DNA of 64,000 nt from Proteromonas lacertae (Eukaryota). Location of the stretch: assembly GCA_002245135.1 (NCBI GenBank), contig NGBS01000299.1, forward strand, positions 1 through 64,000. Direction: 5' to 3'. The stretch's first letter is position 1. Each line of letters opens with the position of its first letter. The position numbers and the translations under genes were made by a program. This document shows positions 1 to 49,137 of the stretch, piece after piece. The notes beneath the pieces are model-generated. The model was not told where the DNA came from and ran no database searches. It was given only the letters and a program-made list of their open reading frames with translations.

Positions 1-3000
1 TATTAAATGTAAAAGTGTAGTACAAAAATTAGCAATTGATAAGAAGAAGCCATTTATATATCCCAAACAGAGTTTAGGTCAAGAATGTAATTATTTTACA
101 ATATATACAGGTCTAGTTCCTAATCAATATATGAGTAGATTATTACAATACATATTATCATTAGATGTTATTCAAAATGTCTATTATGTTGGTAATAATG
201 ATAATGATACAATGTTTTTTTTGATATATTTGCTGATGCTTCTAGTGATTATTATTACATCAAAATGACTTATATATAAATGAATCATACAGCTTAAATG
301 TAGATAGAGTTAAATCCAATATATTTTCATATAGGAATAATATAGATGATGTGGTGTTATTATTGTATATTTATCAATTGTAGAAGCTATTCAATTTATG
401 GAAATATGTAGTGATATTAAAATAGACAAATCTAAATGGAATATATTTATAATGAATATAGAGATTGAAGAAATTACTAGTAGTGGTGTATCTTCAGAAA
501 TATTAAATAATATACATATTATTTCTCATTACTTTTCTGATGTAGTTTCTGATGTAAATGAAAAAAACAAAAGAAGTAGTATATCATTATACTGCAGTTG
601 AAAATCCATCTGCCTTGTATATTTCTACATATGTTGGTATAATGTTATTGAAAAATGCAATTGTTGGTATATATGAAAATAGTAACGGCAATATATCAAG
701 TATATATAATTGGGATATACTAAGGAAGAGTATGTATCATAGAACAGTTGAATTTGGTGCAGGAATAATCACATTAGAACCAAATCATCATGTCAATTTA
801 CCTTTTTTCGTAGGGAAATATTCATCAACAGAAAAGAGGTTTATTACTGTTTATTCTAAGTTTGATCATTCTGAAGCAGAGGCTTGGAGTTGGTATTTGC
901 AAGAATATACTGGAAAGCAATGTAATTATGAAGGTAAAGGTGAAATATATGATGTTAAAACCATAAGAATATTATTAGTTGGAAGTATCACTGGTGGAGA
1001 TAGTGAAGAAAATAAGGGTATTGTTGATGTATATCAATTAGTAATTGATGAAGTTAATGAATTAGGAGGAATCAAGGATTTCATCCTAAAAGGTGATATC
1101 TATGATACTCAATCTAATACTAATTATTGTAGTAACTATATACTTCAATATAAAGCAAAATATCATCCATATTTAATACTAGTATCTGCTGAAGAAGAAT
1201 GTATAAAGAAAGTAATAGAGAGTGAAGATGATACATCCTCGTTTTATTTAGTATTAAATCAAGTAAATATTGGTTATTGTAAATCAAATGTTATATTATC
1301 TGGATTTCATCCTACACTTTATGAGAATATTTTAGATGTATTAATAAATAGAGAATATAATAATTATCTGTTAATTGGATCTTCCTATTATCATGTTACA
1401 GGCTTTGTGACTTTGTATTTTAAGAAATACGGATATAAATTCTATGAGCCATTAGTGTTTGATACAAATATAACTAAAGAAAACATTACCGAATATCTAA
1501 ACAAATTCATGTTAACATCACCAAGGAATGAAAGTAACATAATCATATTTGTTGGATATAATCTACAATTCGATGTATTGCAAGAAGTATTAACAAAGTT
1601 GAATCTATCTGAACCATATATGAATGTAATATCATTATATATGTATTATGAGTTAAAGAAAGGCAATATTATTGATTTTGAAGGTGTAACTGGATATAAC
1701 TATCGATCACAAACTAAAGAGAATAAATTATTCATTGAAAATATGCAACAACGTTTAGGTTCAAAAGATGAAATAACAGATGCAATAGAAAGAAGTTATT
1801 CTGCATTTAGATTAATGGTAAAAGCTATGAATGAAAGTTCAGAATTAACATATTTATCAATAAAAGAATCAATATTTAAAGTCAAATATAATTCTCCAGA
1901 AGGGGAAATATCACTTGCAGTGAATCAACAAATGAAAAGAAAAATGATCATTTTTAAAGTAGATAAAAATGATGGTAAAGAAATAATTACATTTCAAACT
2001 GGAAATTATGTAGAACCAATAATATATTACACTATTGATTCAACTTATCCAGTGTGCGATTTTACTGATAAAACGATTGGTGAAAAAGGACTTCCAACTA
2101 CTTATGCAATCGGATTATTATATTCAATGACAGGTGCATGGAAAGGTATTGAAATACAAATATTCCATACGATTCTATTAGGATTATCAGATATAAATGA
2201 AAGAAAATATTTTGGTGATACATATGTTATATATGAATTATATGATACAAAATCAAGTGTAAAAGGTTATGTTGATGGATTTAATTCATTCAAAGCAAAT
2301 GGTAATATTTTGTATGTATTTGGAGGATCAAATCATGAGACATATCAAGCATTACTTCCATTATTCGAAAAGGTTAGAAAAATATTCATTTATACTGGAA
2401 TTAATTATAATACTGAGTGTTATGCTCATACATTTTCAGTTTCAAAACATCCATCACAAATAGCTGAAGCTAGTTTACATTATCTAATAGAATCAACTAC
2501 AAATGTAGTATTATTACATTCTGAGAAATCTGAATATTCTAAAGTGGTCTATAAATGGATTTATAATAGGTTTACTAATGTATCAATGGGGATTATTGGT
2601 AATATAGAGTATACAACAGCTAATTATGCAGTTCATTCAATAAATACAGTATTAAGAAATGGTGGTTATATTTTGAATATATTATCTGATGAAAAAGAGA
2701 ATTTAAATTTCTTTAATGAAATGTGTAAATCAAATCTATTACCAAATAAATACAAGGTTATAAGTGTATTAATAGATGAAAATTTAATACATAAAGTTGA
2801 TAATATGAAATGTATGAAAGGAAATGTGTTGTTAGATACATATTTTGAGTCATTAGGAAATAAAGCATTGAATAAAATTGGTGTTATTAATTTATCAACT
2901 TCATTTAATATTGCATTACATTCCTATTTAGGATCAAATATAAGAATAACAAGTTTACATGAAAGTGCATATTCTGGATTATTAATATGGTCAAATACAA

Positions 3001-5539
3001 TTAGTAAGCTAAGTACAGCAGATCAATATGATATTACCAAAATTATTGGTATATTTACCATATCCAATTCAGTTCCATCGGATTCAGTAGATGTTGAAAA
3101 GAATAATTTACTTTCTAGAAGAATGTATGCTGCTACTGTAACTCCAAATAATCAATTATTAATTGAATATGGTCCAAAAGGTGTATTTTATCCTGAATTG
3201 TTTAATCAATACACTAATACAACAGGATGGTTTTGTGATGTAACAAGAACTAATCAGGAATATAGTTACTATAGTTATCCACTATATATTGCATTTATAC
3301 ATGAAAAAGATGTAGGTGTGAAAACTGAAATATATATGTCATTAGTAGAAGATGCAACAATTAGAGATATTAATGATAATGGTGGTGTATTGAATCATAG
3401 ATTAATTGGTGTTCATTTCTTCCCTTCTAAACATCTAATATTTGCTAAAGCTCGTGAAATTACTCTCAGTAATCAATATCAAATTATAATTGGTTGTATG
3501 ACATCTTATTGCAGAGATGAAGTTAGTAGATATGTTAATAGAAATGATAATGATATGTTATTCATTGATACAGGTAGAGATAATGGCAATGCATGTTATA
3601 GAAAGACAGTTATAACTGGAACAACAATGGCTCAAAAATTACCTTTATTATTGGATTATTTAAACAATGTTGGTATTCATAATATAATAATTATTGGTTT
3701 GAATGATGCTTATTCTGTTATAGAAGCTAATGAGATTTATAATAAGACAATTGATGCTGGTTATAATATTGAAGGAATATTTTATTGTTCGCCATACAAT
3801 AAAGAAGAAATAGCAAAGATTATGTCGAATATTACTGATATTATTAGTAGAATTGGTAGAGTAGGAGTGTTTAATTTATTTGAATCAAATCAGAATCAAG
3901 TTTTAAGCGAATATTTAGTAGCTTTTGGTGCTAGATTTAACGTTTTTAATATGATTTTCTTTAACTTTGAACCATTTGAGTTTACTGATGATATGTTAGT
4001 TCAATTAACAGGATCTTTTGTTGTTTCATCATATTCTACTGTTTTATCTGAAACAACAAGTGATACATTCAGTTATACACTTAGTACAGAATTTACAAAA
4101 TACAGTCAAATGTCTGAAAGTATAGAATCAGCTTATGTAGCAATAAAGTTGTGGGAATCTGCATTAGAATATGCTTCAACACAAACAAAAGAAGAAATAC
4201 CAAGTAGAGCTTATCTTCGTCTGAGTTATTTTAATGTCAGACTTACAGCACCATCTGGAGCAGTAAATGTCCAACATAACAATCATTTATCTAAAAGTGT
4301 AACATTATTTAAAATTAATAATGATAATCTTGATTTAGTAACACCAAGAAAAGGAGTAAAATATTATCCACCTGATATATTATATGGAGTTCAATCTTGC
4401 GATTGTACTTTTGATAAAGATGAATTTGAATATCTATATAATGATGCAATTGGTGCAATAGTAATAGTGTTAGCTGTTATTAACTATCTATTAGCATGCT
4501 TTGTATCAACATTAGTACAATTATATAAACATACAAAAGTAATAGTTAGTGCAAGTCCAGCATTTATTAATTATGCTTTATTTGCATTAGCATTAATTTC
4601 TACTGAAGGATTAATGTTTACATTTAGACCAACAGAGGTTTGGGTTTGTATTGTAAGAGTATGGGGATTAGCATTAAGTATTTTACTCTTATTCAGTATA
4701 ATATTTTCAAAAGCATGGAGAATTAATAAATTATTTAACAATAAGCAATTGGCAAGAGTTAAAATATCTAACAAACAGTTATTACAGATGATTGGTTTGA
4801 TGATGTTTTGTGAATTGGTTTATTTGACAATTTGGTGGGTTGTAGATCAAAGTAAACCTACTTTAAGATTAGGTATTTCTCATTCAAATTTTTTAGAGAA
4901 TGTGTATTTGGTGGAATGCACTCAGAATGATTATTTTGTGTATAATATATTTATATTTATATTTATATTTATTTAAATAGAATTATTCAAGTATTGTTAT
5001 TGTTGTTTTTATTTTGTTATGGTGGTAAATTGGCTTGGAATGTTAGAAATGCTGCTTCTGAATTCAATGAATCAATGTCTTTAGCAATGACAATAGCATT
5101 GATATGTATTGCAGGAATAATTGAAGTTCCATTAAATTACTTAATGATTGATAATCCAGACGTATTATTGATTTTTAGAGGTATTGGAATTGAAATATGC
5201 ACATTATTCATCATAGTGATTCAATTTGGTTCAAAATTGACATATATATGGGTTAATGAAATTAGAACAACAGGAGGATCTTCTTTAAGTGGTCCTACAG
5301 ATAATTCTGGTAAAAGTGGGTCGAAAACAAATCTAGCTTATCAAAGAAATAATGCAAGAAATGCATCAGGAGTAAATTATCCTATTGAACCAGATATATT
5401 GAAGTGTAGTGATTTGACTTTATGTTCATTATCAAATCCAGAGTTATTCTTCTTAGAAGCAACAACTAATAGTTGTATTTGTAAAAACTCTAGAAAAGCA
5501 TCATCAACTTTAATTGCTCAACCACTCAATTGTGTGTAA
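1..5539 (+). CDS. Class C (GABA-B/mGluR-like) GPCR with at least 4 tandem UrtA/AmiC-type periplasmic-binding domains; 5' end lies outside the window
   Basis: 7TM motifs VIVSASPAF, CIVRVWGLALS, FSKAWRINKLF and AWNVRNAASEFNES. Intron 4940-4980 joins ORF 558-4976 to ORF 4994-5539 in frame. PBP starts: IRILLVGSITG..IDEVNELGGI (~960), AIGLLYSMTG..DINE (~2106), IAFIH..DINDNGGVLN (~3288). Bases 2-210 read PFIYPKQSLGQECNYFTIYTGLVPNQ (UrtA-like). Homopolymer frameshifts lie between ~215 and 567. Confidence 0.88.
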
Positions 5540-5612: not shown

Positions 5613-7343
5613 TCACTCTATTTTATCTTCAATTTTCTTAGATTCTTTTATATAACTAGCATTCTCTAAATCTAATACTGTTTCCTTCATTTTCTCTTTA
5701 TTTGTTAAATCAATACAACATTTCAATCCTATTTTTTCTGCCATTCCATTAACTCTCTTCAAATACTCAATCTTTTGTTCTGGTTTTAATATTGTCATAT
5801 GTCTAACACTTTCCAAAGTAACACAACAATCAGGTTTTAATAAATTCACAATTTCAGGATTATCCAATAAATGAACACTTACATTTGAAAATACGACACG
5901 ATGGAATAAATGATTAAATCTTTTCTTCTTATACATATTATTAAAATCTCCTGTGATGAAAAACACTTTAATATTATCAAATGATTGGATGATTTCTAAA
6001 GCTGTCATTTCAGCTCTTTTTTCTTTCTCTTTTAATAAATCTTCTTCTTCTTCTTCTTTTGTTTCTGTATTTTCTTCTTCTTCCTTTATTGTATTTAATT
6101 TATTAATATTCTCTTTTGGAAGTTCAGGAGTATCTTTACTTGCAGATGGTGGTGTTGGAGTTGATTTATCTTCTCTCATATCCTTAGGTTCTTCATTCTT
6201 TTCATCATCATTCAAACCACTAAATATCTATTAATAACAAATATAATAATAATAATAATATACATCATGTTCTTTTCTCATTTTATAGATTCTACCTGTT
6301 TCAATCTCAGTAAAATAACACAACAAATTATATACACTAACTTCACAACAATTATGTCTCCATTGTTCAGCTCCAGTACCTTTATTCAAAACTAAAAACA
6401 AATCCTTAGCATAATTATTAGACTTATAACAATCAATACCAAATGTAATATAAGGAGAAATAGTAATATCAGTCCATAAACCTCTTCTTAATAACGCTTT
6501 TCCTCTCTCATGACCTTCACAATAAGATATCATTGTTCTATTTGGCTTGTTATAGACTTGATCACCAAATTCAAATCCTATTCCTGTTGTTCTCCATGTC
6601 TTATAAAGTTTCTTATGAATTATACCTGCTGTATCATGCACACCATTCATATTGTAATCCCAATCGATTAGATTAGTTCTATTATCATATCTGTCTCTGT
6701 AGGAATGACGTAATCTGTCATCATATAGTCGTTCTATATCACATGGTATTCTTGAATCGTATGACTTTAATACTTCTTCTATCTCATCTTTTTCTTTATA
6801 TTTTAGACAGGAAAAATCGACAATATCATTAAGAAAACCTTGATTATTGCATAATAGGTTGATTAATGATTTAGATTGTTGATATACATATGATTCAGTT
6901 CTTTCCTACAATTAAATATAGAAACATGAATGTTTATATACTTGTAACAGTATATTTCCATATACTTCTAACCATGTGTTTATTCTAGTTCGAATAGGCA
7001 TTGACCAGTCTGTAGCAATTTGCATCATTAGTAAATCTTTGGTAATTACTTCAATTGGTTTGTCATAAATATAGAAATGAATAGCTTGATTTCCATGCAA
7101 TCTACGCCTTTCAGAAATGGTCTTTAGAATATGTCTAATATCACCTGGTTCTACTAATAAAATATTGTAAGGCTCATCTTCATGCTGTACTATTTAATTG
7201 ATATACTTAATTGGATTATACAAGGGAATTGATTGTACAATTGAGGAGTTTCATATAAATTCATAGCAGGAGAGAACCCCCACATGTGATGTACTCCAAT
7301 ATTTAGATCAGCCTATAGAAATAAACACTTCATCAAATACCAT
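5613..7343 (-). CDS. DNAAF3: Dynein axonemal assembly factor 3 (PF22; DUF4470/DUF4471)
   Basis: Spliced reading M|ADLNIGVHHMWGFSPAMNL, NILLVEPGDIRHILKTIS, YRDRYDNRTNLIDWDY, WRTTGIGFE, PNRTM, RGLWTDITISPYITFGI. Several short GT-AG introns. Confidence 0.88.
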
Positions 7344-12874: not shown

Positions 12875-14515
12875 ATGAAATTCATTTATTTGATATTTTG
12901 CTTATCTGTTTGTTTTGCCTCAGAATTCAGATTCTCAACTGCTATTGGAGATCACATGGTTCTTCAAGTATATTTATTATTTCTATTAACTCTGATTTTG
13001 TAGAGAGCTCCCGAAAGAGCAGCAATATGGGGATATGCAGGTATTGATGATGAAGTGAGGGTGAAATTTGATGGAAATGAATATATAGCAAATCGTGAAG
13101 GAAAGTATAACTAAACATTGTTATTTATGAAATTGAATAGTCGTTGGAAAGTGTTATTACCTCCAACCGAAGCATCTAATAAAGTATATGAAATATCAGC
13201 TTCTACAAGTAATGGTGAAACCATTTCAGTTTCAGACATACTATTTGGAGATGTTTGGTTTTGTTCAGGTCAATCTAATATGGAGATGGTACTAAATCAA
13301 GATCGAAACGGTAAAGAGACGATGGCTGAAGCTGGAAATTACACTCAAATTCGATTATTAACAATTTCTCGAGGTTGGGATATTAACAAAACTGTGGATG
13401 ATTTAAGCATATCAGATTATAGACAGTTATGGAGTGTGAACAGTCCTAGTGCTTTAGATGGAGGAAAGACTTTCTCATATTTCAGTGCTGTTTGTTATTA
13501 TTATGGATTAGAATTACATAAAACTCTAAAGATTCCAATTGGATTAGTTTCATCATCCTTTGGTGGAAGTCTTATTGAAGCTTGGTCAACTCCTAACGTT
13601 ATTAATAGTTGTAGTAATATTGCTTGGGAAGGAAACAATGAAGGTAATAAACATCCTGGTGCATTCTTTAACAAGATGATTCATCCTTTATTAAACATGA
13701 CAATAAAAGGAATGATTTGGTATCAAGGCGAAGAGAATGTAAAGTTCAATCCTGGAAATATAAAACACAATGATGGTTATCCATGTTTATTTAGACATTT
13801 TATTGAAGAATATCGAAGATTATGGAGTTTAATTCCAGGAACTACCAATAATAATTTCCCTTTTGGATTTGTTCAGCTCAGTGGATATTGTCCAGGTCCA
13901 AATCATTTGTGTAATAATGATATAGGAGTTGGTAACTTAAGATTTGCTCAAACTGTAGAACAAGGATTTGTTCCTAATAAATATTTACCCAATACATTCA
14001 TGGCAGTATCAATGGATTTGCAAGATCCTTATTCTTCATCTGGTGAAATTCATCCTGGATATAAGAAGATAATAGGAGAAAGATTAGCAATGGGTTCTTT
14101 TCATTATGCGTATGGTTTAAATAGTTATACAAATGGTCCATCTTATGAAAGTTGTGAGATTAATGGTGATGAATTGATTGTAAATTTAACAAGATCAATG
14201 TTTTATGAAGATGAAATCGAGATAAGACACAATTATGGATTTGAAGTGAATGTTGGAAATTCTTCAAATGCAGTATGGAAGAAAGTATCAATAAAAAGCA
14301 ATAAAGATATGAGTGTAGTAGTTGATGTGAAAGGAGTGAAGAATATAGTTGGTTTGAGATATATTTGGAGAGATAACGCTTGTTGTCCAGAATCCTATGA
14401 AGGTAAATCTGGTTTTACTTGTGGTATATTAAACTGTCCATTATATGGTAAACAGTCAAAATTACCAACTCCTGGTTTTATATCTAAAATCGTTGATGGA
14501 GTATGTTTATTATAA
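12875..14515 (+). CDS. SIAE: Secreted sialate O-acetylesterase (SGNH/SASA domain)
   Basis: Signal peptide MKFIYLIFCLSVCFA; GDHMVLQ|RAP; GDVWFCSGQSNM; GGSLIEAWS; IWYQGE; FGFVQL; IHP. Two short introns near 12968 and 13105. Confidence 0.92.
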
Positions 14516-25180: not shown

Positions 25181-26325
25181 TTATATATCATCATCAATAG
25201 ATCCAGGAATATTATTATTGTTTAGATTACTTCTATATGAAGCTGTAATGTTTTTATTAAACATTAGTGATGAAGTACTATTTCTTACTTTAGCTGATAA
25301 ATATCTATGACTTGCTCTTAAATGTGATATATTATTATAAGAACCATTATCATACTCTGACATTAATCTATGTGATCCTTTTGCACTCCCTGAATTAATG
25401 CTTGACAATACTTTTGAGGGTCTTAATTGAGGTTCTCTTGGTTTGGTTCTTCTGAATATTTTATTATTCTTTAAAACACTTGGTGATTGTAAACTAAATA
25501 AACTTTTACATTGATTTACACCATTTGCAATTCCTAAAAATTTCTTGAATTTTATATCTCTAGCACTTGGAAATGACTCATAATCAAATCGACGATATTT
25601 CTTTAATTCTAATTTTATACAGAAACAACATGCATATTTGAGTTGTCCATTGTGTTTTTCTTTGTAATTTTCTCTTTGCTCTATTTCATACGGTCGAGAG
25701 AGTATATCTTCCACCTTCTTAGGAGAAAACAACACATCTCTAATTGTTGAACTAATTACTTGTAATAGCGTACAATTGGTGGATGTTGTTAATAACTGTA
25801 TATACAATTCATCAAACGTTAATGTCTTTAATGCAGATAGTTCTGGAGGATAAAGGGAGATTTGAGAGAATATTAATTGGAGTTTCTTGGGAGATATAGC
25901 ATTTTCACTTTCTATTTCTAATTCATGCAGTACAACTATTATAAACAAAAAAAAAAGATAATACATTTCAGCAAATAATTAAAAGGTAAAAATGCAAAGG
26001 CAGATACGTATTGAAAGAATAAATCGAATTGCATTACACCTATTTTATTATAATAAGATTTTAAAATACGAATTTTAATGAAGATGCGTTGGAATATGTT
26101 GGGAGACGGTAAATGAAAGGTTTTCTGAAATAAATTATATGTGATAAATTTTCCTCCTCTAAAATATAATAGACAAAAGAAAATACTTTTCTGTCATTCC
26201 TAAAAAAACTTGATAAATCAACGTTACGTCTGTAAAATTGTCTATAAATGCTAATTAGTAGAATAAATACAACAACAAAGCTGAGCTATTAATCTAGAAT
26301 TGTCATTGAGTTTTATTTCATTCAT
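25181..26325 (-). CDS. Uncharacterised paralog family member 2
   Basis: MNEIKLNDNSRLIAQLCC|; FDLFFQYVSAFAF; ILSRP; CCFCIK..RFDYE; S/N-rich tail. Confidence 0.7.
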
Positions 26326-26430
26326 AAAAAAATCTAAAAAACTCGGCTTGAGTTCCTTTAATTTAATTTAAAACGAATAAATAACCCAAATCAATGGCAA
26401 TATATTTATAAGATAAATTATAACACAAAA

Positions 26431-27424
26431 TTAATTAATTATTTTTGAATGAGATAAAGCTGAGGAAACACTAGCAATTTCTGTTGTTTGATCCATTTCT
26501 CTGGCAGGGTTAACTATACTTTTAGATTTACTAATTATAGATGCTGGTACACCTACAGCTGTTACATTATCTGGTAGACTCCTCAAAACAACAGAATTAC
26601 TTCCAATCTTCACATTCTTACCTATATTTATATTGCCCAGTATTTTTACACCACATCCAACCATCACATTATTACCAAGTTTTGGATGTCTATCACCTGA
26701 TTCTTTGCCAGTACCTCCCAGTGTTACTTCGTGAAGGAATGAACAATTATCTCCAACGACAGCTGTTTCTCCAATTACTAATCCAGTTGCATGATCTATT
26801 AATATTCCTTTTCCTAATTTTGCTCCTGGATGAATATCTACATTGAAAACTTCACTAATTCTACTTTGAAAACATAAAGCTAATTCTCTTCTATTATGAG
26901 TGTATAAATAATGAGCTATCCTATAACTTTCTAAGGCTAAAAACCCTTTAAAAAATAAAACTTGTAATGGATTTTCACATGCTGGATCTCTTGTACACAC
27001 TGATATTATATCTTCTCGTATTGTATTTGCTAAATCTGAATTCTCTGTTAATATGCTAGTGATTAAATTATGTAAGTGCGAATGATGTAACATGTCATTC
27101 TTGAGTTTATCTGATAAACAGAAGGCAATTGATGATTCAAATGAGTTGTGATATAATATAGTTGAACTAACATAATTAGCTAGTATTGGCTCTTTTGTTA
27201 ACATGATTTCTGCATGATGTCTTATTCTATACATTAAAATGATTAACTTGGTTATATATACAATTGCCATAATATATCTATGCACTGAATTGAATATGAT
27301 GATTGAACTGACTATATTATGATAATAAACGAAAATCTATACTGCAATACAACTAGATTGTATATCAATCTGATGAGGTAATGAAAATCCAACTTGTAGG
27401 AATTGAAGGACAATTTGCTAACAT
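26431..27424 (-). CDS. cysE: Serine O-acetyltransferase (5' end uncertain)
   Basis: Spliced DILWQLIRHHAE..KEPIL; RDPAC; FKGFLAL; VDIHPGAKLGKGILIDHATG; VTLGGTGKESGDRHPK; TAVGVPA. Confidence 0.93.
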
Positions 27425-27583
27425 GATAATGTATGAAAACAATATATTGTAAACAAGTTTAAAAAACTCTACAAAAATCGTTTTTCCGTTATAAACTTGT
27501 TATGTGAATAAAAACACAAATTTACAATCTTTTTTTTTAATAAAAAATAAAATTTACTAATTTAAAGTTACATTTCAAATGAT

Positions 27584-29121
27584 CTAAGAAAAATCTGGTA
27601 AAGGAGGAGGAGGACGAGGTGGCATTAAAGGACTAATTTTATTATTACGGCCTGCCATGTTAAGCATTTGTCTATTGTATAGAGAGATACTATTCATATC
27701 ATTAGGAGAAAAATCAGCTCTTTTAGATTCAAATGGCGAATTAATTAAAGCATTGTCTTTATTTGAATTAACTGAGTTCTTACACGAATGAATAACTCTC
27801 TGTGACTTTATAAATGGAGAAGTCAATCCATTAGCGCCAGTAGATACAGCACCAACACTATTTCTTTTAACCCTTGTTTTATTACCAAAATCTATCACTA
27901 AATTCACACTATTCTTTTGAGAATTAATACTCTTCTTTAAATAACTACTTGTACCTTTTGGTGTATTAAGATGTTGTTGTTGTTGTTGTTGCTGAAGCTG
28001 CTGTTGTTGCTGTAATTGCAATTGAGCTTGTGATTGTAAATATATATTAGCCATTTTACTACTACCATGAGTGTTATAATTACTGCTATTACTACTGTGA
28101 TTAGCACTTGCACCACTTTTCTTTCGATGATATTTATATCCTAAATCTCTTTCTGAACTTATGGGTGAGGTTGGCAAGTTATTGTTATTGTTGTTGTTAG
28201 TACAACTATTTCTACCAGATCTAGATTTTGGAATAGAATAAAATGTTAAATGTGATTTTAATGTTTTAATAGAGGACGGATTAAATACAATTAATATATT
28301 TTCTAAAAATCTAGATATTACATTCTGACGGTTATAAGATGGTGTTTCATAATCATAATGCATTCTTGTTGGATGGTCTTTTCCACAATGAATTATCTTA
28401 AAACAACAGGGATTAGGAGGTAACTCTCGATACTGTGATTCATACTCTTCTCTTATTTGTATATAATTTGGACGTTCACTGATCTCTTGGTATTTTTCTG
28501 ACAATAATCCACTTCTTATATTTTGTCTGATTTTTAATAGTTTATCATAACTGTGTTTTTGTTGTGCTAGTAATTGGATCAATGAGTTGAAATGGACTGG
28601 ATATTCACTATTATAGATATAAGTATAATATATATATACATTCTTTCACTCTTAGCTACACTGTTATAGAAACTATCTGAACTGATTTCTTTTAAAATAA
28701 CTAAAACATCTTGCTGTGATAAAGGTTGAGTGTAATCAATGTTGAATATAATGCAAATGACTTTTATTATCAACTGAAACGGAAATACAGAAAATACAGA
28801 AGTGATTTGAAAAAAAGAATCCCAAGTCAGTGATTCTATTAGAATATTATACAATAATCTATATACCATATTTTTTAAATATTTCTTTCCACATTTCTTG
28901 AGTATTTAAATGAAAGATTGATAAAAAATTACTCATTGGAACATTTAACACAGTCCTATGTCAAGTTAAAAATACTTTAATACCCTCCTGTCAAATTCAA
29001 GAAATATATGTACAAACTCTGTATTTCTGACTGATTGTCTAAAAAATAGAGTAAAGAGTAATATACAGCAACATATTCGTGCTACAATTTCTGATTCTTC
29101 ATCTATAGTGCACAATTCCAT
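27584..29121 (-). CDS. Uncharacterised paralog family member 3
   Basis: MELCTIDEESEIVARICC|; WDSFFQITSVFSVF; ISERP; CCFKII..HYDYE; long Q/N/S-rich tail. Confidence 0.7.
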
Positions 29122-29310
29122 AGCTAAAGCATAATTAAAAAAAATAGTTATATTTGCTTGGCTTGTATTTAAAAGAAAATATGGTCGTTACATCATTTTT
29201 TAATAATCAAAATTTTGCTTCTACAACAAAGAAACCTCTTAAATTCATCAATAAACTTGTTCCATACAAATAAAATAAACAAAATAGAAGAATAATAACA
29301 ATAAGCAGAT

Positions 29311-30860
29311 TTATGGAGTATCAAAAGTTGATTCTTTTGGAGTTGTTGGGGTTTTATTAACTCCTCCTTTCTATAAAATACACTAAATAATGCAATATAT
29401 ACTGTAGCCTTCTTTTTATTACGAAGATTATCATAGAAAGAAGCAATTCTATCCTTCTATATTGAAAATAGTAATTAAAATAAAATACATTTGTATTTGC
29501 TGCAACAGATATTGTCTTCTTACCAACTGTAGTTGTTGTACTGCTAGCCACTTTTGTATCTTTGAATAAAGAATCAATAAAACAATCAGGATCAAGTATA
29601 TAATCATCTTCATCTCTTCTCTATTACATATTAATAATATATATACTGTAGAATTATCTGCAGGAGTTAATGGAGTTGGTGTTCTTGCATTTTCCTCAAT
29701 TTCTAATCTCAAAGTATTCAATTTATCTTCATTATCCCAACCAGAAGGGATAAATATATTTTTAATGTCATTTCTTCCTCTGTAATGATAGTTAAATATA
29801 TTTGGGTAAAATCTATGATATAAATAGGTTTGTAATTGTAATAGATTCATATTGGAACTTTCTTGTATGGAAGTATAACAAACAGCAGCTCGATCTATAA
29901 TAATAATAATAATAATAATAAACAAATATATACATCTATAAGCAGCAGATCTAAGATAATTAGATACAATTTTAGATTTCTGTGGTATACCAACTGATTC
30001 ACAATGTGTACAAATGAAAACAATTGGAATTCCACAATTCTCAAATGAACTATTATCATCATTAGTATCATTTGAAGGAGTTGAAGGATATTCATCCTTA
30101 TTCATACCATCCTGTTGTTGATTTTGTTGTTGTTTTAATGGTGTTGTAGGTGTAGCAATGGGTGTCTCTAATACATTTACTATTGATTGGTTTAATCTAT
30201 TTACAATTATATCATTCTCATCATCTTCGGTTGGTTCTTTATAATTCTTTAAGTATTCTACTATATTTTGCTTGGCTATATTTAATTGTTCTTCAGAGAC
30301 ATTGAATTGCTTATCTAAATGATCCATCCACTATTTTATAGATATAATAATATTATTATATGTTATTTTTTATACAGATTCTATGCTTTTTTGAATTACT
30401 TCAACAGATTTTGTTAAATCAATAACAATTGCAATTATTGACTAAATTACAGGAAAATAAAATAAAATATATACATTGTGTATTGTTGAATCATTAATAT
30501 AAAACAGTAATTGACTTCTTAGACTTTGGTGAGATATTGAGTAAATATTAAGATTGACATCAGGACCTATGAATAGTAATGATATTGTAACAATACCAAT
30601 TGGAGATGAAGATGGGGCTTTTGGATGAATAAGAGGAATAGCTTGATATGCACAAATTAATGGTGTTTTATTCTCTTGATCTTTTTTCTTACGCTGACAA
30701 CCTAAAGCTTTCATGAGTGTTTTCTTACCAACACCCATATCGCCTTAATTGAATAGATAATTACAAATATACCTAACAAAAACAATGTACTTTCCGGCAT
30801 TGTTGATTCTTTAGCAATATCATCTAAAATTGCTGACCACAATGATTTATTTTGATCCAT
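29311..30860 (-). CDS. DYNC1LI: Cytoplasmic dynein 1 light intermediate chain
   Basis: MDQNKSLWSAIL; P-loop-like LLGDMGVGKKTL; CGIPIVFICT; IFIPSGWDNEDK; C-terminal IASFYDNL helix. Many short introns. Confidence 0.85.
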
Positions 30861-30993
30861 TTTATAAAGCTAATCAAGCCAAATAGCTTGCAAATCTTTT
30901 ATGAATAATTCTTGATTTTGTTGTTAATTAGAATGTATAGACCACAATTGCATAATTAAAAGAATAGTAAATACGCATTTATAAATAAAATAA

Positions 30994-32409
30994 TTATTTC
31001 TTCTCCAAAGTTTTGTTAGATTCTTCTTCTTCTAAAATTGGAGGAGTTTGTTCGACACTATTTGGATTTAAATTAGGTTCAGGAGTTGTATCTTCAGCGT
31101 TATTACACACATTTATCAGTTGATCACTTGTATTTACTCCTCTCAACAGTTCCAATGGTGTTTCTAATGCCATAGAATTTTCATACTCTTTTGCTCTTCT
31201 TGCAACTCCCAAACCAGCAACTTGTGTTCTATTACTTGTAGATCTTCTTCTTCTTACTGCATTATTCACATTGTTGTTATTAGGAACACTACCACTATGT
31301 GCGTATAACAATGCTTGGTTAGTATTATGTGGCATTTGTAATGAATTCTTAGATTTGAGTAATGGTGATAATGCACTTATGGAATTGGAGTTTGTTCCAA
31401 TTTCTTTATTTGTGCCATTGTTTATTACAGTATTATTATCTGTCGCATCACTACAAGTACTATGTCTGTATCTACCAATATTACTACTTCCACCATGAGC
31501 TAAAGATTGACCAACTGTTGATGTGGTTCTATTCGTTGAATAGCACCTTTCACTAAATATTATCCGTATATAATCTAACAACATCCTTATTGCTACTACT
31601 CTTTGACTTGCACTTACTTCATAATCAAATTTATCCACATTTTTTGAACAAGTTATAGTGTTATAAATAGTTAAACAAAAATTTCTTTTTGGCAATTTTC
31701 CTCTGTGAGTTTGTTTATATTGTTCTCTATACTCTAATACATTTGGCCTGTCGAGAATTTCATTACTCCTTGAAGCTGAAAATATACTTCTACAAAGATG
31801 TTTACGTATTTTGGTGATTTGAGTATAACATTCTGGATTCTTTTCGATTATTTGTATGAAATCTTGGAGAGTTAAAGGATAAGAAAAGGACTGTTCTTCA
31901 GATATCTTAAATATATAATGTGGATATGCTATTTCATTCATTACAGCATCTACTTCAGCTTTTGTTAATAGATTTCTTGGATCTATTCCTACCAGTATTA
32001 AAATTACTATTTAAATATACAATATTAAATTATTTTATACATTGAACATAGGTTGATAAAGGACTGAATGCAAGAAGAGAATAATACTGGAAGAATGTAT
32101 TCCATTCCATGTGTCCTAATATAAAGATTATTAAATCCCATTAAAAATACTATATTGTTTAAATATTTTCTTTATAAAATAGTAAGATTGAATCTTAAAA
32201 GAAGAAATAAAAGTAGAATAATTTATATAAGGCGATTCCCTATGTTTATTTAGAAAAATAAAAAATACTTGTGGGTATGATTAAGAAAAAAAAGGTAGAT
32301 AGCTCTAATTTCGGTTTCATCATCTAAAAGCATAAAAATAAAGTATACAGCAACATAGTTGAGCCACCATTAAGGATTCTTGATTTAAGACACTACTCTC
32401 AGTGGTCAT
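30994..32409 (-). CDS. Uncharacterised paralog family member 4
   Basis: MTTESSVLNQESLMVAQLCC|; WNTFFQLFSLLAF; ILDRP; FCLTIY..KFDYE. Confidence 0.7.
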
Positions 32410-32604
32410 TTAAAAAAATAACTTAAAAAATTTGAAGAGCAAAATTCAATTCATTTTATCCTATTTAATTTATATATTTTAATTTGATTTTAAAATGAAT
32501 AAAACGGTAAATTAAAAAACACAAAAAATTCTTTGTTAATCTTCACCAACATACAAATATAAAAGAAGACTAATAAATATATATCTTATTTAATCATGTA
32601 AAAT

Positions 32605-33932
32605 CTATTCAAAGACATCTGCTAAATCATTTGCTTTTAAACTTCCATTTTCACAATCACAGATTTTTGCAGGAACACCTTCATCATAATCTAAACATGA
32701 ATCTAAAGACAATTTTCTAACATCACTCTTCTTATCTGGTGTTGCAAAATCTATCAACATTTTTCTGTTATTCATATCAGGTGTATTTGCTGTAGTATTC
32801 ATTTGAGTTAAACTACAAACAGACCCACCTTTCTTTCTCGCTTTTGAATCAAATATTTTATCTGAAATAATTATCAAACTATTTGCTTTTTTCTTGTTTG
32901 TATCAGATCTTGCAGAATGCATAGAATGTGTAGATTTCAAACTATTTCTCAATGAATTTGTTGCTCTCAATGGTCTTGTACTATAACCATATCTATATCT
33001 CATAGTTGAAACAATTCTTGTGACTTTTTCTACTTTTTCTTCATTAGTAAATGGTTGAAAATCACAACGATATGGATGAGGTCTATTGGTGAACAAAACT
33101 CTTGATAAATGATCAAAGCAGGTTTCTGGGGGTAAATTTACAGCAGTTTCATTCTTTTTAGCCAAATTACAATAGAAATAAATTCTTTGTAATGAAGTTA
33201 AATAAACTTGATGAGTTATCATTCGGTTTATTATTGCTTCTTTTATCAACCTTAGTGGTTTTACTATTTTGGATGTTGTATGAAACTCTTCGAAGAAGCC
33301 AGCTATTGGGACTCTTCTTTCTTTATCTCTTTCTAATGAAATAATCCATTCTTTTAAATAAGTATCATTTGGAATATTACATTTTTGAAGAAAATCTATA
33401 ATCTGGTCTTCTGTGATTGCAAGGTTTGTAAATATTCCACAACAACTTAAAAGTACTTGAAATACCATCATAAAGTCGAAATATACATAAAATAATACAA
33501 ATTCTATAAAATTATCCATAGATATTCTATTCTCTATTAAATAAATAAATGTATAATATACGGCAATATTTAAAATACTGTTCTAATATAGGAAAGCTTT
33601 CTAAACGAAAGTGCTTGTTAAATGATTCTAAAGTAATGTAATTTTCTGTAGAATTTTCATGCCAAATATCTATATATTCTTTTTGTATATCATTTATATC
33701 ATTGTATTGCACTAAAACATAAACATAAAGATATACGACATAAATATCTTGCAATAAGTAAGTTATTCTCAGATAATTTACATATAGTTGTTTTAATTTT
33801 TTTGGGATATGAAAAGGACTTTATTAACTCCAATGATTTCATCTTAGGTCAAAATAAAAAAATAAAAAATACCAACCCATCTTTAGTAGCAATATATGGT
33901 GGACCATTATTTAGACTACTCGAAACATCCAT
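32605..33932 (-). CDS. Uncharacterised paralog family member 5 (subfamily B)
   Basis: YIDIWHE; DNFIEFVLFYVYF; ITEDQI; PPETCFDHLSRVLF..PHPY; MRYRYGYSTRP. Confidence 0.7.
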
Positions 33933-37135: not shown

Positions 37136-37309
37136 TTTTATATTATACTTTATTATGTTTTATATTCATATATTTTTATAAATGTTGAATTCTATTTGTA
37201 AACTCATAAATAAAATAGTTTAAGATATGTACATTAAACATATTCATTTTTTTTAATAAATGCATAAACGACTCTATTTTTAGATTTCATTTTTTAATTT
37301 CATTTTTAT

Positions 37310-40300
37310 ATGAGATTCAATATATTTATTCTCTTTTTAATATTTTCGTTTACAATAGCGAAGCCTGGTGGCAAATCTTTACCTATATGTATGACTGTTA
37401 TATTATTTTTAGGTGCATTTTTCAATGAAGGAAGTGAGTCATCTGAATCTACAACATCTTGGTGTAAAGAAGGGATATTGGTTGAATTAGCAGCTAGAGT
37501 ATGCTTTTTTATCTATAATTGTCAGTCTGCTGTTGAAGTTATCAATAGTAACGATACATTAAACATAGAAATTAATTTTCACGCTCATGATTGTGAAAAC
37601 TGGGAGTATATATTGTATTGTATATTCTGTAAAGAGGGAAATGTTTAAGTGAAGTAGAAAAATCAATAAAATATGACAATCCATGGATAATAATGGGTGC
37701 AGGATCTAGGTATGTTTATTTTAGTTATATTTATTGTTGTCATTATAGTGAAATATCAAAATTTGTTCAATTTTATTGTATGTCATACAATATGAATCAA
37801 ATTGATTATGGTTCAACTGCTTCTGTCTTATCTGATGTGTTTAAATACACCAATTTAGCAAGAGTATCCGTTACAGATAGATATTTAACAGATGCTTTAT
37901 TTGATTTGATATTAAAAATCGGATGGAAATATATAACAATAATAGCAGAGAATTCTGATTATGGTACTTCCAGTTCTGAGATGTTTATTCATACAGCAGA
38001 AAAGAAACAAATTGATTTAGAAATTATAGTATATATAATATATTTAATTATAATTTATTTTTATTAATATAGGGAAGTTATTTAATTGAATCACATGTTA
38101 GTTTACCATACACTGAAGATTCATTAGAAAGAGTGACAAGAATATTACAAAAAATAAAAGAAGGAGAAAGTAGAGTAATTATACTATTTTCACATTCATC
38201 AGTAGCACAAGCAATATTATACAAAGCAAATGAACTTGGATTAATTGGTAAAGGTTGGAGTTGGATATCAACGAAATGGGGTGTTGTAGATACATGGAAA
38301 ATGAGTAATGAAAAATACTCTGAGACAATAAAGCAAGCAATGGAAGGAGTAATTGGTGTATCAGCTACAAAAGGTGACAAAAATTTGTTATATGAAAAGA
38401 TGAAGAATTACAGTGAGAAACATCCTGAAGTAGTCGATGAATTAAAAAGGAAGTGTGATTTAGATGAATTAGTGATTGACACACAAGAGATGACACCAAT
38501 GATATTTTATGCTTATGATACTATTCAAGTAATAGCAGATGCATTTTTAATAAAGTATATTTTGTTATTTTTTATTTATTTACTTTCTAGCAATGATAAT
38601 AAAACCTTCTTTGATTCATTAAAAGATAGAGAATTTCAGGGAATAACAGGATCTATTCGATTCGATAATAGCTTTGATAGAATTAGTACAACAGTTGATG
38701 TAACAAATATGAGAGATGGAAAATTGTATGTTGTTGGTAAATGGAATCCTGATATTATAAGTATTTTTTACTTCTTTTTTTAAATTCTTTAATAGATGGA
38801 ACGATATATAAAGGTTCTGGCACATTTAAGAAGACAGATAAAATATATTATGCAGATAAAACTACAAATATTCCATCAGATCGATTTATAGAAGAAGAAA
38901 GTTCAACTGCTGAATTTTTCACAATTGTTACTTTGTTGTTAGTAACTTCATTAGCATGTGGAGCTGTAATTGAAGAATTTGATATTCATCGATTTCCAGA
39001 AACTGCCGCAGTTGTAATTTTAGGTATTATTACTGGATTGGTAATTCGTTATGGGTTTGGCAAAGGTCTTCAAAGAGTATATAATATATTATTATTGTTA
39101 TTATTATTATTATCAATTAATAGACAGCAATGTTCAACGAAGAATTCTTTTCATTGATTCTTTTACCCATTATTATATTTGAATCAGGTTTTGGTATGAA
39201 GAATAAAGAATTCTTCGTTAAACATATTGGAACAATCTTAGTATATGCTGTAATTGGTGCATTTATGACAGCTATGTTGGTTGGTTCAATGTTATTAATT
39301 CCATTCAATAATAATTGGTTTTCATTTAAATGGAGTATATTTGAAGATTTTTCTTATGGTTCATTAATATCAGCAACAGATCCTGTTTCAACATTAGCAA
39401 TATTTGGATCATTAAAAGTAGAACCAATGTTAAATATGTTAATATTTGGTGAAAGCGTTGTAAATGATGCTGTATCAATTGTATTATTCAAAACATTCAC
39501 TGGATTTATGGTTACTGATATTACAAAAACCGCAATCTTATGGGCAATAGCCAAATTCTTTATTATGTTTATAGGTTCAACTTTAATTGGAATAGTTTTA
39601 GCTATTCTCTGTTCATTAGTTTTAAAAGTTTCTCCTATACACCATCCAGTGTTAGAATCAGCAATTATCTTCCTGGTTTCATATATGTCATTTGAAATAT
39701 GTGAAGCATTAACACTCTCTGGTATTACTTCAAGTGTATTCTGTGGAATTGCTATGAATTATACAGCTAGAAAGAGAATGAGTGTGAAAGGAAAAGAGTT
39801 TAGTTACACAATGTTTAGAATGCTTGCTCAAATATCTGAAACATTTATATTCTTTCAAGTATAATTATATATATATATATAATAGATTGGTTTGAATGTG
39901 TTCTTATATATGGATATTAAAGATGTTCCATTTGGCTTGACTTTCTGGATTTTATTTGAAATTGTTATTATTCGAATATTTATGATTACCTTCCTTACTT
40001 TCTTTGTAAATTTATCTCGTAAGTCTAATAAAATACCTTATAATTATCAAGTGATTCAAATATATGCTGGATTAAGAGGAGCAATTGCTTACTCTTTATC
40101 AGTTTCTTTCCCAAGTCATAATAGACCAACCATTGTTGCGTATTTATATATATATATATATTATGTGATTATATTGTTATAGTGCAACTATGTGGATCAT
40201 TTTATTAACACTATTCATACAAGGATGTAGTACCTATGATATGTTGAAATGGATGAAAATACCACTTGGTGTTGAGTATGTTAAGCCTCCAGAAATGAAG

Positions 40301-44827: not shown

Positions 44828-45933
44828 ATGACCGAGAATGTAATTGATGAACTAGTATATATTAGTAATACATTTTGTAAAAATAGCATGATGGATTAGT
44901 ATATTATGAAAAGCACAGAAGTCACAGACCATATGACCATTTACTTGTTCATTTTAATTCAACAACCCTTAGATTACTTGAAAAAATATATGGTATTTTA
45001 ACTAATATGATATTATAGCTAACAACTATGAAGTGAGTGAATGGGAATATTTCTACCTGAAAATTTGGAAAGAAGACCCAACACAAGGTGATGTTGCAGC
45101 AAAAGTTATCTTAGGGAGGTTAGGAGTGCAAGATGTTCCGCTTTTCCAATCTTATTTTGCTCCATTTGGAGGAAGAATAAGTATCTCTCATTTCCTAGAA
45201 TTTATAACTTTATTTACCTTTTTCCATCCAGATCAACTATTGCCACTTAATTTATTCAATGATTCAAGTAAAAAGTAACAGATTTATCACAGAAGATCAG
45301 GTCTTTGTCTTGCTACATTATCTTAAAACTACACCAGATGGTTACCAAACAGTCGGTGTATGGTTATCTGATATAAAAAAGGATGAAAACGGTTTTATAC
45401 CTTTAAATGAATTAACTACTTTACTCTTGAATGAAATGTCAATATTATATATTTTATCAGAGTTAAAATCCAAAATAATAGAAACTATCATTACCTTTGA
45501 GGTATATCAAGGCATAGAACAGAAAAGAATATATTACGATGATTCTCAAATGACTGGTATTAAGCCGCCATCAGAAAGTTGTGTGTCTAGTATGTTGCGA
45601 CAGATGTTTTCTCATTACCCTCCTCCTTATTACTGTTCATATACTTATATACAAAGAGTGAGTATTGAGGATATATTGTTTGTCATAAGACAAAGATTTG
45701 GATATAGTACAAGACCTAATTGTGAATCATCTACTGCTTTACATTCCTCAGTTTCAACCAATAGTCTTAGAGTGTTGAAGAGTGTAGTATCACACGAAAC
45801 ATTAAGAAGTAAATCTCAAGTTAAGCCTTTAAACGTCAAAAAGAGCACAAATAATATGGAAATGAATAATTATTATAAAGTTAGTACAAATAGAATGTTT
45901 CAAGACAATACAAAAATTTCTCCTCTTATGTAA
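44828..45933 (+). CDS. Uncharacterised paralog family member 6 (subfamily B); one frameshift
   Basis: NNYEVSEWEYFYLKIW; ISHFLEFITLF; PPSESCVS..PPPYY; IRQRFGYSTRP. Extra A at 45249-45250. Confidence 0.72.
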
Positions 45934-46075
45934 GCAATTATCAGCATATTAAGAGTAAAATATTAAGTTAATTTATTATGAATTAGTTTTATTAGTTGTT
46001 TTGTCATTTATTAAAGAAAGTGGTTTTTCAAAAACTCAGATCTGGTATTGCTCGTTTTTTAGAAAATCATTTGTT

Positions 46076-47382
46076 ATGGTTGAAGAAAAATTAGACGAAT
46101 ATGTAGATATTTTTTTTCTCTATTTATTATGTATAGATTAATGGTATAGAGTTTTACCAGAAGCATAAGAATAGAAGACCTTACAACTACCTTCTTGTTC
46201 AGTTTAACCCAATCTGCTTGCCTTTTCTTGAAAGAATATATGGTATAGTGAGAATATTTATATTTTGTAGTTAATAATTACGAATTGTCAGAATGGGAGT
46301 ACTTTTATCTGAAAATATGGCAAGAAGACACAAGTCAAAATGATATTAGCGCTTCGCAATTATTAGAGAAATTAAATGTAAGAGGAATACCGATTTTTCA
46401 GAATTATTTCGCTCCTTACAGTATCACTAATTTTTTTAAATTATTTTTTATAGATGGTCGTGTATCTTTATCTATATTTTTGGAATTTATATGTATTTTT
46501 GGATTTTTCACAAATGAACAACTATTACCACTGTTATACTCCATTTCTAATGTAAAAAGTAATAGAGTCATAACAAAAGAACAAATAATTATATTTTTAC
46601 ACTCGCTTAAAGTACCTTTAGATCAATTACAACATATCTCAGTATGGATGGCAGATGTGGAAGATGAAAATGGATTTATACAACTAAACACACTAACATT
46701 ATATATACTAAACGAAAGATTGTTATTTTATTCAATTTATTCAATTCAATCTCAAATCATCGAATTTATAATAACAAGAGATGTATATGTTAGAATCAAT
46801 AGAAGAATGAAGTATTATTCAGATGTAGCAGAACCCAATATCGAGCAACCTCCAGAGTCTTGTCTTAATTATTTACAAAGAATAATTTTTTCAAACAATC
46901 CTCCACCTTTTTTTTTCTCTTATGCACCTTATAATCGTAGATTAAACCCTGAAGATTTGTTGTATGTAATAAGACAAAGATATGGTTATAGTATAAGACC
47001 AAACAGACAAAGTTCGTCAATGTTAAGTTCAAAATCAACTCGAAATAATCATAACAGTAGTATTAATAACATGAATACACTAAATGCAAATTATAAGAAA
47101 ACAACAACAACAGCCAATAGTAGCAGTAACAAAACCACTACTACTGCTACTACATATGGAAATACGTCTTCAATGACAAGGAATTCTCTTCTTGCAGGTT
47201 CAATTAGTTCAAATACTCTTAAAATTGCGAAATCACAAGTTCTGGTTGGTCATTCACCTTATACTAAACATTCTTCAAAATCAACTACTATTGATACTGA
47301 TAAATCTTTTAGAAATAAGACAAATTCAGCTAAAGTAGTTCCGTTAACATATCCAAATGATTGTTTGGAGGTAAAGGATTAA
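46076..47382 (+). CDS. Uncharacterised paralog family member 7 (subfamily B)
   Basis: NNYELSEWEYFYLKIW; LSIFLEFICIF; PPESCLN..PPPFF; IRQRYGYSIRP. Closest to member 6. Confidence 0.75.
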
Positions 47383-47667
47383 TATTTATTTAACATTGTG
47401 TAATAAATGTGTTATTTTTTATTTAATTCATTATGATTTCAATTCTTTTTATTATATAATTGGTGTATTTGTTATATTTGTTGTGTTGGTGTGTTGTTAA
47501 ATAACATTACTCGCTATAGTCTAAAATCCATTGCATATGTGTAATCACCTCACTCTGATGATTCAACTGTTAATGTTAGATATTATATATATTGTACTAA
47601 TATGTATATTAACATTTCATTATCTTTTTTCTACTTTTACACATATTCTTAAAATCAGAAAATAGTT

Positions 47668-47674
47668 TCGTTTC
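47668..47674 (+). promoter_or_regulatory. YCGTTTC start-proximal motif (example copy)
   Basis: Also found at 21087, 33975, 49066, 50647 and on the reverse strand at ~7361 and ~7374, in each case near a gene start. Confidence 0.4.
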
Positions 47675-47688
47675 AAAACTAAAGATTT

Positions 47689-48890: not shown

Positions 48891-49137
48891 TATTGTAATT
48901 TAGTTAGTTGATTATATGTATAATATTTCTAATTTATATCCCATGTGTATATACATGTAAATATTATGTATTATTTAATACAGTATTGTAATCTAAGTAT
49001 TTTATTCATTTTTATTTATATTTCAGTTATATTTTAAAGTTTTATTGTTATTTTAAAAAATATATTCGTTTCACAAAATTAAAGAATTTCGGTTATAAAT
49101 TTATGAAAAGGTACTACTGAGAAAGCTATTTCTTTTC

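What the first reader, a model, noticed from the sequence alone, without database searches (positions are those of the whole stretch)
1..5539. Class C GPCR with a concatemer of at least four bacterial UrtA/AmiC-type sensor domains
Seen: upstream of a clear class C 7TM are repeated ~370-aa units, each ending in W/Y..C. They begin IRILLVGSITG, AIGLLYSMTG and IAFIH, and a fourth unit is cut by the window edge (FIYPKQSLGQEC..IYTGLVPNQ). Established: bacterial urea/amide-binding proteins UrtA/AmiC carry K.GILHSLSG..AI.EIN..GGVLG and LLFYP.QYEG.E.S.NI.YTGA.PNQ, and animal class C GPCRs have a single flytrap of a different subfamily. Inference: a laterally acquired binding protein was amplified in tandem and recruited as a multi-ligand GPCR ectodomain. 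The 4.4-kb exon without an obvious intron, unusual in this intron-rich window, fits that origin.
Basis: partly seen in the sequence, partly recalled or inferred. Interest (0 to 1): 0.8.

Follow-up and report, generated by a model that had tools for sequence, protein, structure and literature searches.

The report
Receptor with stacked bacterial urea-binder domains

Summary
One reading frame (558-4976) carries the end of one flytrap, three whole flytraps and TM1-4 of a class C 7TM; a predicted 41-base intron completes TM5-7. Profiles, solved-structure searches and a predicted fold all rank UrtA first, AmiC second and animal flytraps lower. A homologue at about 50% identity shows about six units in all.

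The gene belongs to a family I did not find described. Related receptors carry 2-9 adjacent UrtA-type flytraps: about 40 unnamed AT-rich proteins in a fixed order Z-A-B-C-D, plus Capsaspora, five chytrids and unnamed eukaryotes.

The urea/amide multi-ligand reading is not supported for this gene. Its whole units keep 1-2 of 9 urea-pocket residues, and those positions vary more than average across paralogues. Only unit Z, upstream of the window, keeps a conserved pocket. Several chytrid and other relatives keep 9 of 9.

The transfer is old, and the long exon is no evidence for it. Four frameshifts in the first 590 bases are likely assembly errors. Bacterial binding proteins fused to class C receptors are known; the UrtA type and long arrays were not found in print.

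The parts
2..929 (+). Flytrap unit A, cut by the window edge, broken by four frameshifts (near 212-222, 247-274, 351, 561-584), no in-frame stop
   Evidence: 182 of 296 aligned residues identical to P0001 758-1060 across the shifts; Peripla_BP_5 E 2.2e-05 on the first piece
933..2069 (+). Flytrap unit B (UrtA-type); 2 of 9 urea-pocket residues, cysteine pair kept
2070..3245 (+). Flytrap unit C (UrtA-type); 1 of 9 urea-pocket residues, cysteine pair kept
   Evidence: best PDB sequence hit UrtA 8HIC E 2.2e-16
3252..4406 (+). Flytrap unit D, membrane-proximal; 1 of 9 urea-pocket residues; joins TM1 through a short linker with no nine-cysteine domain
4437..4939 (+). Class C 7TM, TM1-TM4 and second outer loop, in frame with the ectodomain
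   Evidence: 7tm_3 E 3.4e-25; best PDB hit GABA-B2 E 2.2e-09
4940..4980 (+). Predicted 41-base GT-AG intron at the start of TM5
   Evidence: GTATAA...TAG in the sequence; the joined product aligns without a gap to homologues that are continuous here; P0026 reads into low-complexity sequence at the same place; no RNA evidence
4981..5539 (+). TM5-TM7, cytoplasmic tail and stop codon
   Evidence: 7tm_3 profile positions 170-251; three hydrophobic helices

Best explanation
The gene encodes a class C GPCR-type membrane protein whose outer part is a chain of flytrap domains descended from a bacterial UrtA urea-binding protein, and it likely works as a chemoreceptor in which a membrane-distal unit binds a small molecule other than urea while the four units seen here serve as an ordered stalk that passes the change to the membrane domain. 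Shown: the architecture, the UrtA kinship, the fixed unit order in paralogues, the loss of the urea contacts in B-D. Inferred: about six units in the whole gene (from P0001); binding by unit Z, which lies upstream of the window; a stalk role for A-D; dimer formation and G-protein output (from class C biology, recalled). The ancestral form would be a pair, as in chytrids: one intact urea-binding unit over one degenerate membrane-proximal unit.
For: Fusion in one ORF. Of the 150 listed hits, 48 have two or more adjacent units; 46 of these were scanned with Pfam and 21 have a 7tm_3 hit. Order Z-A-B-C-D recurs across paralogues and units cluster by position. Pocket columns average 0.29-0.31 majority conservation in classes A-D against 0.38-0.40 for all columns, but 0.52 in class Z (Y 0.83, D 0.72, E 0.78; p 0.013 uncorrected, one of five classes) and 0.80 against 0.55 in 29 bacterial-type controls. 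The membrane-proximal unit is degenerate (0-2 of 9) in the non-AT-rich receptors tabulated, while a more distal one keeps 9 of 9 in P0002, P0039, P0162, P0163 and P0170. Models of C+D and B+C+D have pTM 0.93 and 0.88, which suggests defined packing between units.
Against: Variable pocket columns fit diversified ligands as well as lost binding. The class Z signal is marginal after correction for five tests (about 0.06), and paralogues are not independent. Pocket mapping in 16-21% identical domains can slip by a residue (differ at Q144 of unit C). Unit Z is not in the window. Capsaspora's best unit keeps only 4 of 9. Four frameshifts break unit A as assembled. The TM7 proline of the recalled class C 'FxPK' motif is serine here. 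No genome, reads or RNA were available.
Confidence: 0.45

Rival explanations
1. Multi-ligand receptor: every unit keeps a working cleft, each paralogue's units have diverged to different ligands, and one chain integrates several cues.
For: All units keep the full two-lobed fold at high model confidence. Below-average conservation of the pocket is also what diversifying selection gives. P0002 has five units with 9 of 9 and one with 8 of 9, so several binding units in one chain do occur. Close paralogues share some pocket letters in unit D (R-D or R-E/N).
Against: No shared pocket signature in classes A-D across 22-33 members each. No DNA of the paralogues was available for a dN/dS test.
Confidence: 0.27
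2. The array no longer senses small molecules. It is a long surface stalk that binds proteins, glycans or surfaces, or senses force, and signals through the 7TM like an adhesion receptor.
For: Length of 2000-3200 residues, an expanded family, variable exposed clefts, a retained cysteine pair in 136 of 155 AT-rich units, 11 N-glycosylation sequons in the window's ectodomain.
Against: Class Z keeps part of the small-molecule pocket. Relatives keep an intact urea site. No adhesion-type domain was found by Pfam.
Confidence: 0.15
3. This copy is a very recent pseudogene of such a receptor; the four frameshifts are real.
For: Four frameshifts in 590 bases; large receptor families shed copies (general knowledge).
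Against: The following 4.4 kb is open. The broken part has no stop and is 61% identical to P0001, no less than the rest (50%). At least two shifts lie at T or A runs. One-base shifts without room for an intron also occur in the Nup98-like gene near 17190 and near 35520, which points to assembly indels.
Confidence: 0.13

Closest known systems
Non-animal class C (Glutamate-family) GPCRs with bacterial-type binding-protein ectodomains: BMP, OpuAC, LysR_substrate, PBP_like_2, SBP_bac_1 (Krishnan et al. 2012, PMC3251606; Seppala et al. 2016, PMC5168858)
   Same: A bacterial solute-binding domain fused to a 7tm_3 domain, without the nine-cysteine domain.
   Different: The passages read name no UrtA/Peripla_BP_5 type and no tandem arrays. 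Capsaspora CAOG_05347, a member of the present family, is in the 2012 supplement as a sequence but its ectodomain is not named in the section read; the figure was not seen.
Cyanobacterial UrtA (PDB 8HIC, 7S6E, 7S6F; Wang et al. 2023, PMC10392092)
   Same: Top hit by sequence profile (E 2e-32) and by fold (E 9e-27); shared cysteine pair and C-terminal segment.
   Different: UrtA is a single free domain of an ABC importer. The window's units are 16-21% identical to a Synechococcus UrtA and keep 1-2 of its 9 pocket residues.
GABA-B receptor
   Same: Best solved match to the 7TM part; type I flytrap joined to TM1 by a short linker.
   Different: One ANF-type flytrap per chain; its flytrap ranks below UrtA, AmiC and LivK-type proteins in the fold search.
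Bordetella BvgS sensor kinase (PMC4352136, abstract only)
   Same: Tandem flytraps in which the membrane-proximal and distal domains have different roles in straining the membrane helices: a functional analogy.
   Different: Two domains, a histidine kinase output, bacterial; no homology was tested.
Pseudomonas AmiC
   Same: Same Pfam family; second group of hits.
   Different: Much weaker match than UrtA (E 4e-10 vs 2e-32); a cytoplasmic regulator.

Membership tests
Class C GPCR | 7tm_3 domain above the curated cut-off | tested here: met
   89.6 bits vs 33.5 for exon 1; remaining profile positions in exon 2
Class C GPCR | Seven membrane helices with the TM3 and second-outer-loop cysteines | tested here: met
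   4 + 3 helices; both cysteines aligned; depends on the predicted intron
Class C GPCR | Large N-terminal ectodomain on the same chain | tested here: met
   one ORF to TM4; continuous in P0002, P0004, P0009, P0023
Class C GPCR, animal mGluR/CaSR/GABA-B subfamilies | A single ANF_receptor flytrap, with or without NCD3G | tested here: not met
   no ANF_receptor or NCD3G hit, while an ordinary flytrap in the same window does hit ANF_receptor
Class C GPCR | Obligate dimer | not tested
Class C GPCR | G-protein coupling | not testable with these tools
   no genome held to look for G proteins
UrtA (TIGR03407) | Score above the family cut-off | tested here: not met
   46-83 bits per unit vs 492.75
UrtA (TIGR03407) | Type I two-lobed fold closest to UrtA | tested here: met
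   model pLDDT 93.6; top six chains are urea-binding proteins
UrtA (TIGR03407) | Urea pocket W120, S122, Y141, Q144, E146, Y190, F192, N246, S274 | tested here: not met
   2, 1, 1 of 9 in B, C, D; at most 4 of 9 in 155 AT-rich units
UrtA (TIGR03407) | Stand-alone subunit of an ABC importer | tested here: not met
   fused to a 7TM; the downstream neighbour is a eukaryotic DUF4470/DUF4471 gene
AmiC amide receptor | Closer to AmiC than to UrtA | tested here: not met

The most novel reading that the evidence does not exclude
Eukaryotic microbes have an unrecognised family of urea-sensing GPCRs built from one ancient capture of a cyanobacterial-type UrtA. Chytrid and other members with the intact site sense urea outside the cell. 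In this AT-rich lineage the module became a fixed five-unit stack whose distal unit was retuned (glutamine to aspartate at the urea contact, perhaps for a cationic ligand), so a signal would cross four flytraps to reach the membrane.
Probability: 0.4. Interest if true: 0.82.

Novelty: new variant of a known kind. Interest (0 to 1): 0.64.

Why it matters
Class C receptors are thought of as one flytrap per chain. Here chains of 2-9 adjacent flytraps sit on the same membrane domain, which raises the question of how closure of a distant domain reaches the helices. The family also offers direct candidates for a urea-sensing GPCR: small chytrid members with all nine urea contacts can be expressed and assayed now. 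That would give flagellated microbes a route to sense an animal waste product and nitrogen source. The window's own gene is a diverged member with unknown ligand, so its value is mainly as the entry to the family.

Tried and rejected
No whole genome is held, so paralogues and the upstream contig could not be examined. No sequencing run was listed; this is no evidence on expression or on the frameshifts. Word-based searches found only P0001; the full HMMER scan found the family. A metagenome scan with units C-D and TM1-4 found no relative. A viral-contig scan for P0045 found none, so a virus as carrier is unsupported. A lineage guess (Blastocystis/Proteromonas kin, from recalled genome features) was tested with a recalled polyadenylation motif: 10 matches against 6.75 expected, not enriched; the lineage stays unidentified, and none of the 15 AT-rich clusters looked up bears a name. 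Trees with distant outgroups pulled the AT-rich units to the base, which I treat as long-branch attraction; the careful search did not finish and gave a quick tree. No match of array positions between lineages was found: position profiles score the degenerate chytrid and P0002 units low. Contamination by bacterial DNA was rejected (intron, host GC3, eukaryotic neighbours). The ESM Atlas gave only generic class C and binding-protein clusters. The last part of script one search failed and its column table was not obtained. Earlier-finding look-ups by place, by sequence and by UrtA words were empty.
Full report
Observation. The + strand carries one open frame from 558 to 4976 (1472 codons) and a second from 4946 to 5539. 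Pfam finds Peripla_BP_5 in four stretches (E 1.9e-57) and 7tm_3 (89.6 bits, cut-off 33.5) in the first, and the rest of 7tm_3 in the second. A 41-base GT-AG intron at 4940-4980 joins them in frame. The joined 7TM aligns without a gap to homologues that are continuous there, and it keeps seven helices, the two outer cysteines and the recalled class C motifs KxWR and FNES. The ectodomain and TM1-4 share one frame, so the membrane part is not a separate gene. The whole units are B (933-2069), C (2070-3245) and D (3252-4406); they are 16-18% identical to each other.

Which flytrap. Each unit scores on Peripla_BP_5 and on the UrtA model, and none on ANF_receptor. An ordinary eukaryotic flytrap elsewhere in the window does score on ANF_receptor, which serves as a control. 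A profile of four units finds 7 solved sequences at E<=0.01: four urea-binding proteins (best E 2e-32), two AmiC, one other bacterial protein, and no animal receptor. A model of C+D (pLDDT 93.6, pTM 0.93) matches UrtA best (E 9e-27), then AmiC (2e-21), LivK-type proteins (1e-16) and GABA-B (3e-16). The W/Y..C at the end of each unit is the C-terminal cysteine of cyanobacterial UrtA. It and its partner in the 'GQEC' motif are both present in 136 of 155 AT-rich units but in 18 of 252 bacterial-type domains, many of which are near-copies. A disulfide is inferred.

The cut unit. Bases 1-929 align to P0001 at 182 of 296 residues across four frameshifts with no stop. The next 4.4 kb has none. One-base shifts with no room for an intron also occur near 17190, in a Nup98-like gene, and near 35520. 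Assembly error is therefore the likelier cause, but no reads were listed to prove it. P0001 is 50% identical over 1055 residues, starts with a hydrophobic leader and has two more units upstream, one whole (Z) and one partial. The gene probably has about six units.

The family. A full HMMER scan gave 1226 proteins at E<=0.001 and listed 150. Of these 150, 48 have two or more adjacent units and 39 of the 48 have an AT-biased composition like the window's. Of the 48, 46 were scanned with Pfam and 21 have a 7tm_3 hit, two of them under the cut-off; many of the others end abruptly, probably at introns or contig ends. None of the 15 AT-rich clusters looked up has a name. Named members are Capsaspora owczarzaki CAOG_05347 and the chytrids Phlyctochytrium bullatum, P. 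planicorne, Gorgonomyces haynaldii, Dinochytrium kinnereticum and Chytridium lagenaria (120 of 147 hits listed). Unnamed members include P0002 (nine units) and P0039. The window's 7TM is closest to its AT-rich paralogues, then Capsaspora (108 bits) and P0002 (98 bits); the chytrid 7TMs do not reach E 0.001 and form a separate group. The module may thus have been joined to 7TMs more than once; no outgroup was available to decide.

History. In a 100-row tree the AT-rich units group by position in the array, not by protein, and the order Z-A-B-C-D recurs in most paralogues. The array was therefore fixed before the family expanded. With distant outgroups the AT-rich units are drawn to the base. 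Without them, in a 33-row quick tree, they form a group (98) inside a group (93) with the other eukaryotic units and cysteine-type UrtA, among them Synechococcus and Alkalinema proteins. One eukaryotic clade is not rejected (AU p 0.52; p 0.16 with P0045 added) but is not shown. Grouping with one set of three other UrtA proteins (L003, L044, P0091) is rejected (p 0.02; the set was chosen after seeing the tree). These trees left out the longest branches, all degenerate non-AT units and any ANF sequence. GC3 of the ectodomain is 0.13, against 0.10-0.18 for four host genes. The Nup98-like gene has an open frame of 1295 codons, so a long exon is not peculiar to this gene. The bacterial origin is well supported and old; its date and the number of transfers are open.

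Pocket. The nine urea-pocket residues of Prochlorococcus UrtA (PMC10392092, part 2 of 5 of the text read) fall at the same numbers in P0082. Units B, C and D keep 2, 1 and 1 of 9; 155 AT-rich units keep at most 4. By contrast five units of P0002 and one unit each of P0039, P0160, P0161, P0162, P0163 and P0170 keep 9 of 9, while the last unit of those proteins keeps 0-2. Capsaspora's best unit keeps 4. Within position classes A-D the pocket columns are less conserved than average (0.29-0.31 vs 0.38-0.40). In class Z they are more conserved (0.52 vs 0.38, p 0.013, about 0.06 after five tests), with aspartate in place of Q144. Units that could not be assigned to a class by a margin of 3 points were left out.

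Mechanism. The simplest members are an intact urea-type unit over a degenerate unit joined to TM1. I infer that closure of the distal unit is passed through the proximal one, by analogy with BvgS (PMC4352136, abstract only). In the window's lineage the likeliest binder is Z, outside the window, with a changed ligand, and A-D form an ordered stalk; the three-unit model has pTM 0.88. The main rival is that every unit binds its own ligand, since variable pockets fit both readings. Dimer formation and G-protein coupling are assumed from class C biology and were not tested.

Prior art. Bacterial-type binding domains on class C 7TMs are in print: PMC3251606 (passages, section 20, search of 3 supplement files) and PMC5168858 (passages). 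The first holds CAOG_05347 as a sequence without naming its ectodomain in the text read. PMC12716839 (passages, section 9, one supplement file), PMC10445921 (passages), PMC12842992 (passages), PMC12965686 (outline and section 6) and bioRxiv 2024.02.22.581678 (passages) did not describe UrtA-type or multi-flytrap receptors in what I read. Searches listed no paper on them. Figures were not visible, and Supplementary file 12 of PMC12716839, a domain list that may include these proteins, was not held. Earlier notes of this scan on similar single-domain fusions pointed me to the 2012 paper and are not counted as support.

Verdict. Real, and a new variant of a known kind. Interest 0.64, mostly for the family: tandem flytrap arrays on class C receptors, and members with an intact urea site that can be tested directly.

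Noticed in passing
window 37298-39864 (+): An ordinary ANF_receptor flytrap (E 2.9e-17 and 1.8e-19) appears to run in frame into a sodium/proton exchanger domain (E 2.9e-39): a flytrap-exchanger fusion. Used here only as a control.
   Followed up: partly
proteins P0160 and P0161: The same intact-plus-degenerate UrtA pair is fused to other outputs: to a membrane helix and a glutaminase domain (P0161), and twice, with Ephrin_rec_like repeats, to a multi-helix membrane domain (P0160).
   Followed up: partly
protein P0002: Unnamed 3745-residue receptor with nine units, five with all nine urea contacts: a candidate avidity or wide-range urea sensor.
   Followed up: partly
proteins P0045, P0050, P0051: Cysteine-type UrtA domains behind N-terminal membrane helices, unnamed, grouping near the eukaryotic units; no viral-contig match.
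   Followed up: partly
window 5613-7193 (-): DUF4470 + DUF4471 gene, recalled as the dynein assembly factor DNAAF3, which suggests a host with flagellar genes.
   Followed up: no
window near 17190 and near 35520: One-base frameshifts without room for an intron in a Nup98-like gene and in a metallopeptidase-like surface-protein gene: likely assembly indels.
   Followed up: yes
window 25181-33582 (-) and 45208-50530 (-): About eight related ORFs sharing a motif like RQRFGYSxR followed by low-complexity tails; an unnamed local family.
   Followed up: no
window 13115-14515 (+) and 26431-27336 (-): A sialic-acid acetylesterase and a serine acetyltransferase, both common in bacteria; origin not examined.
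   Followed up: no
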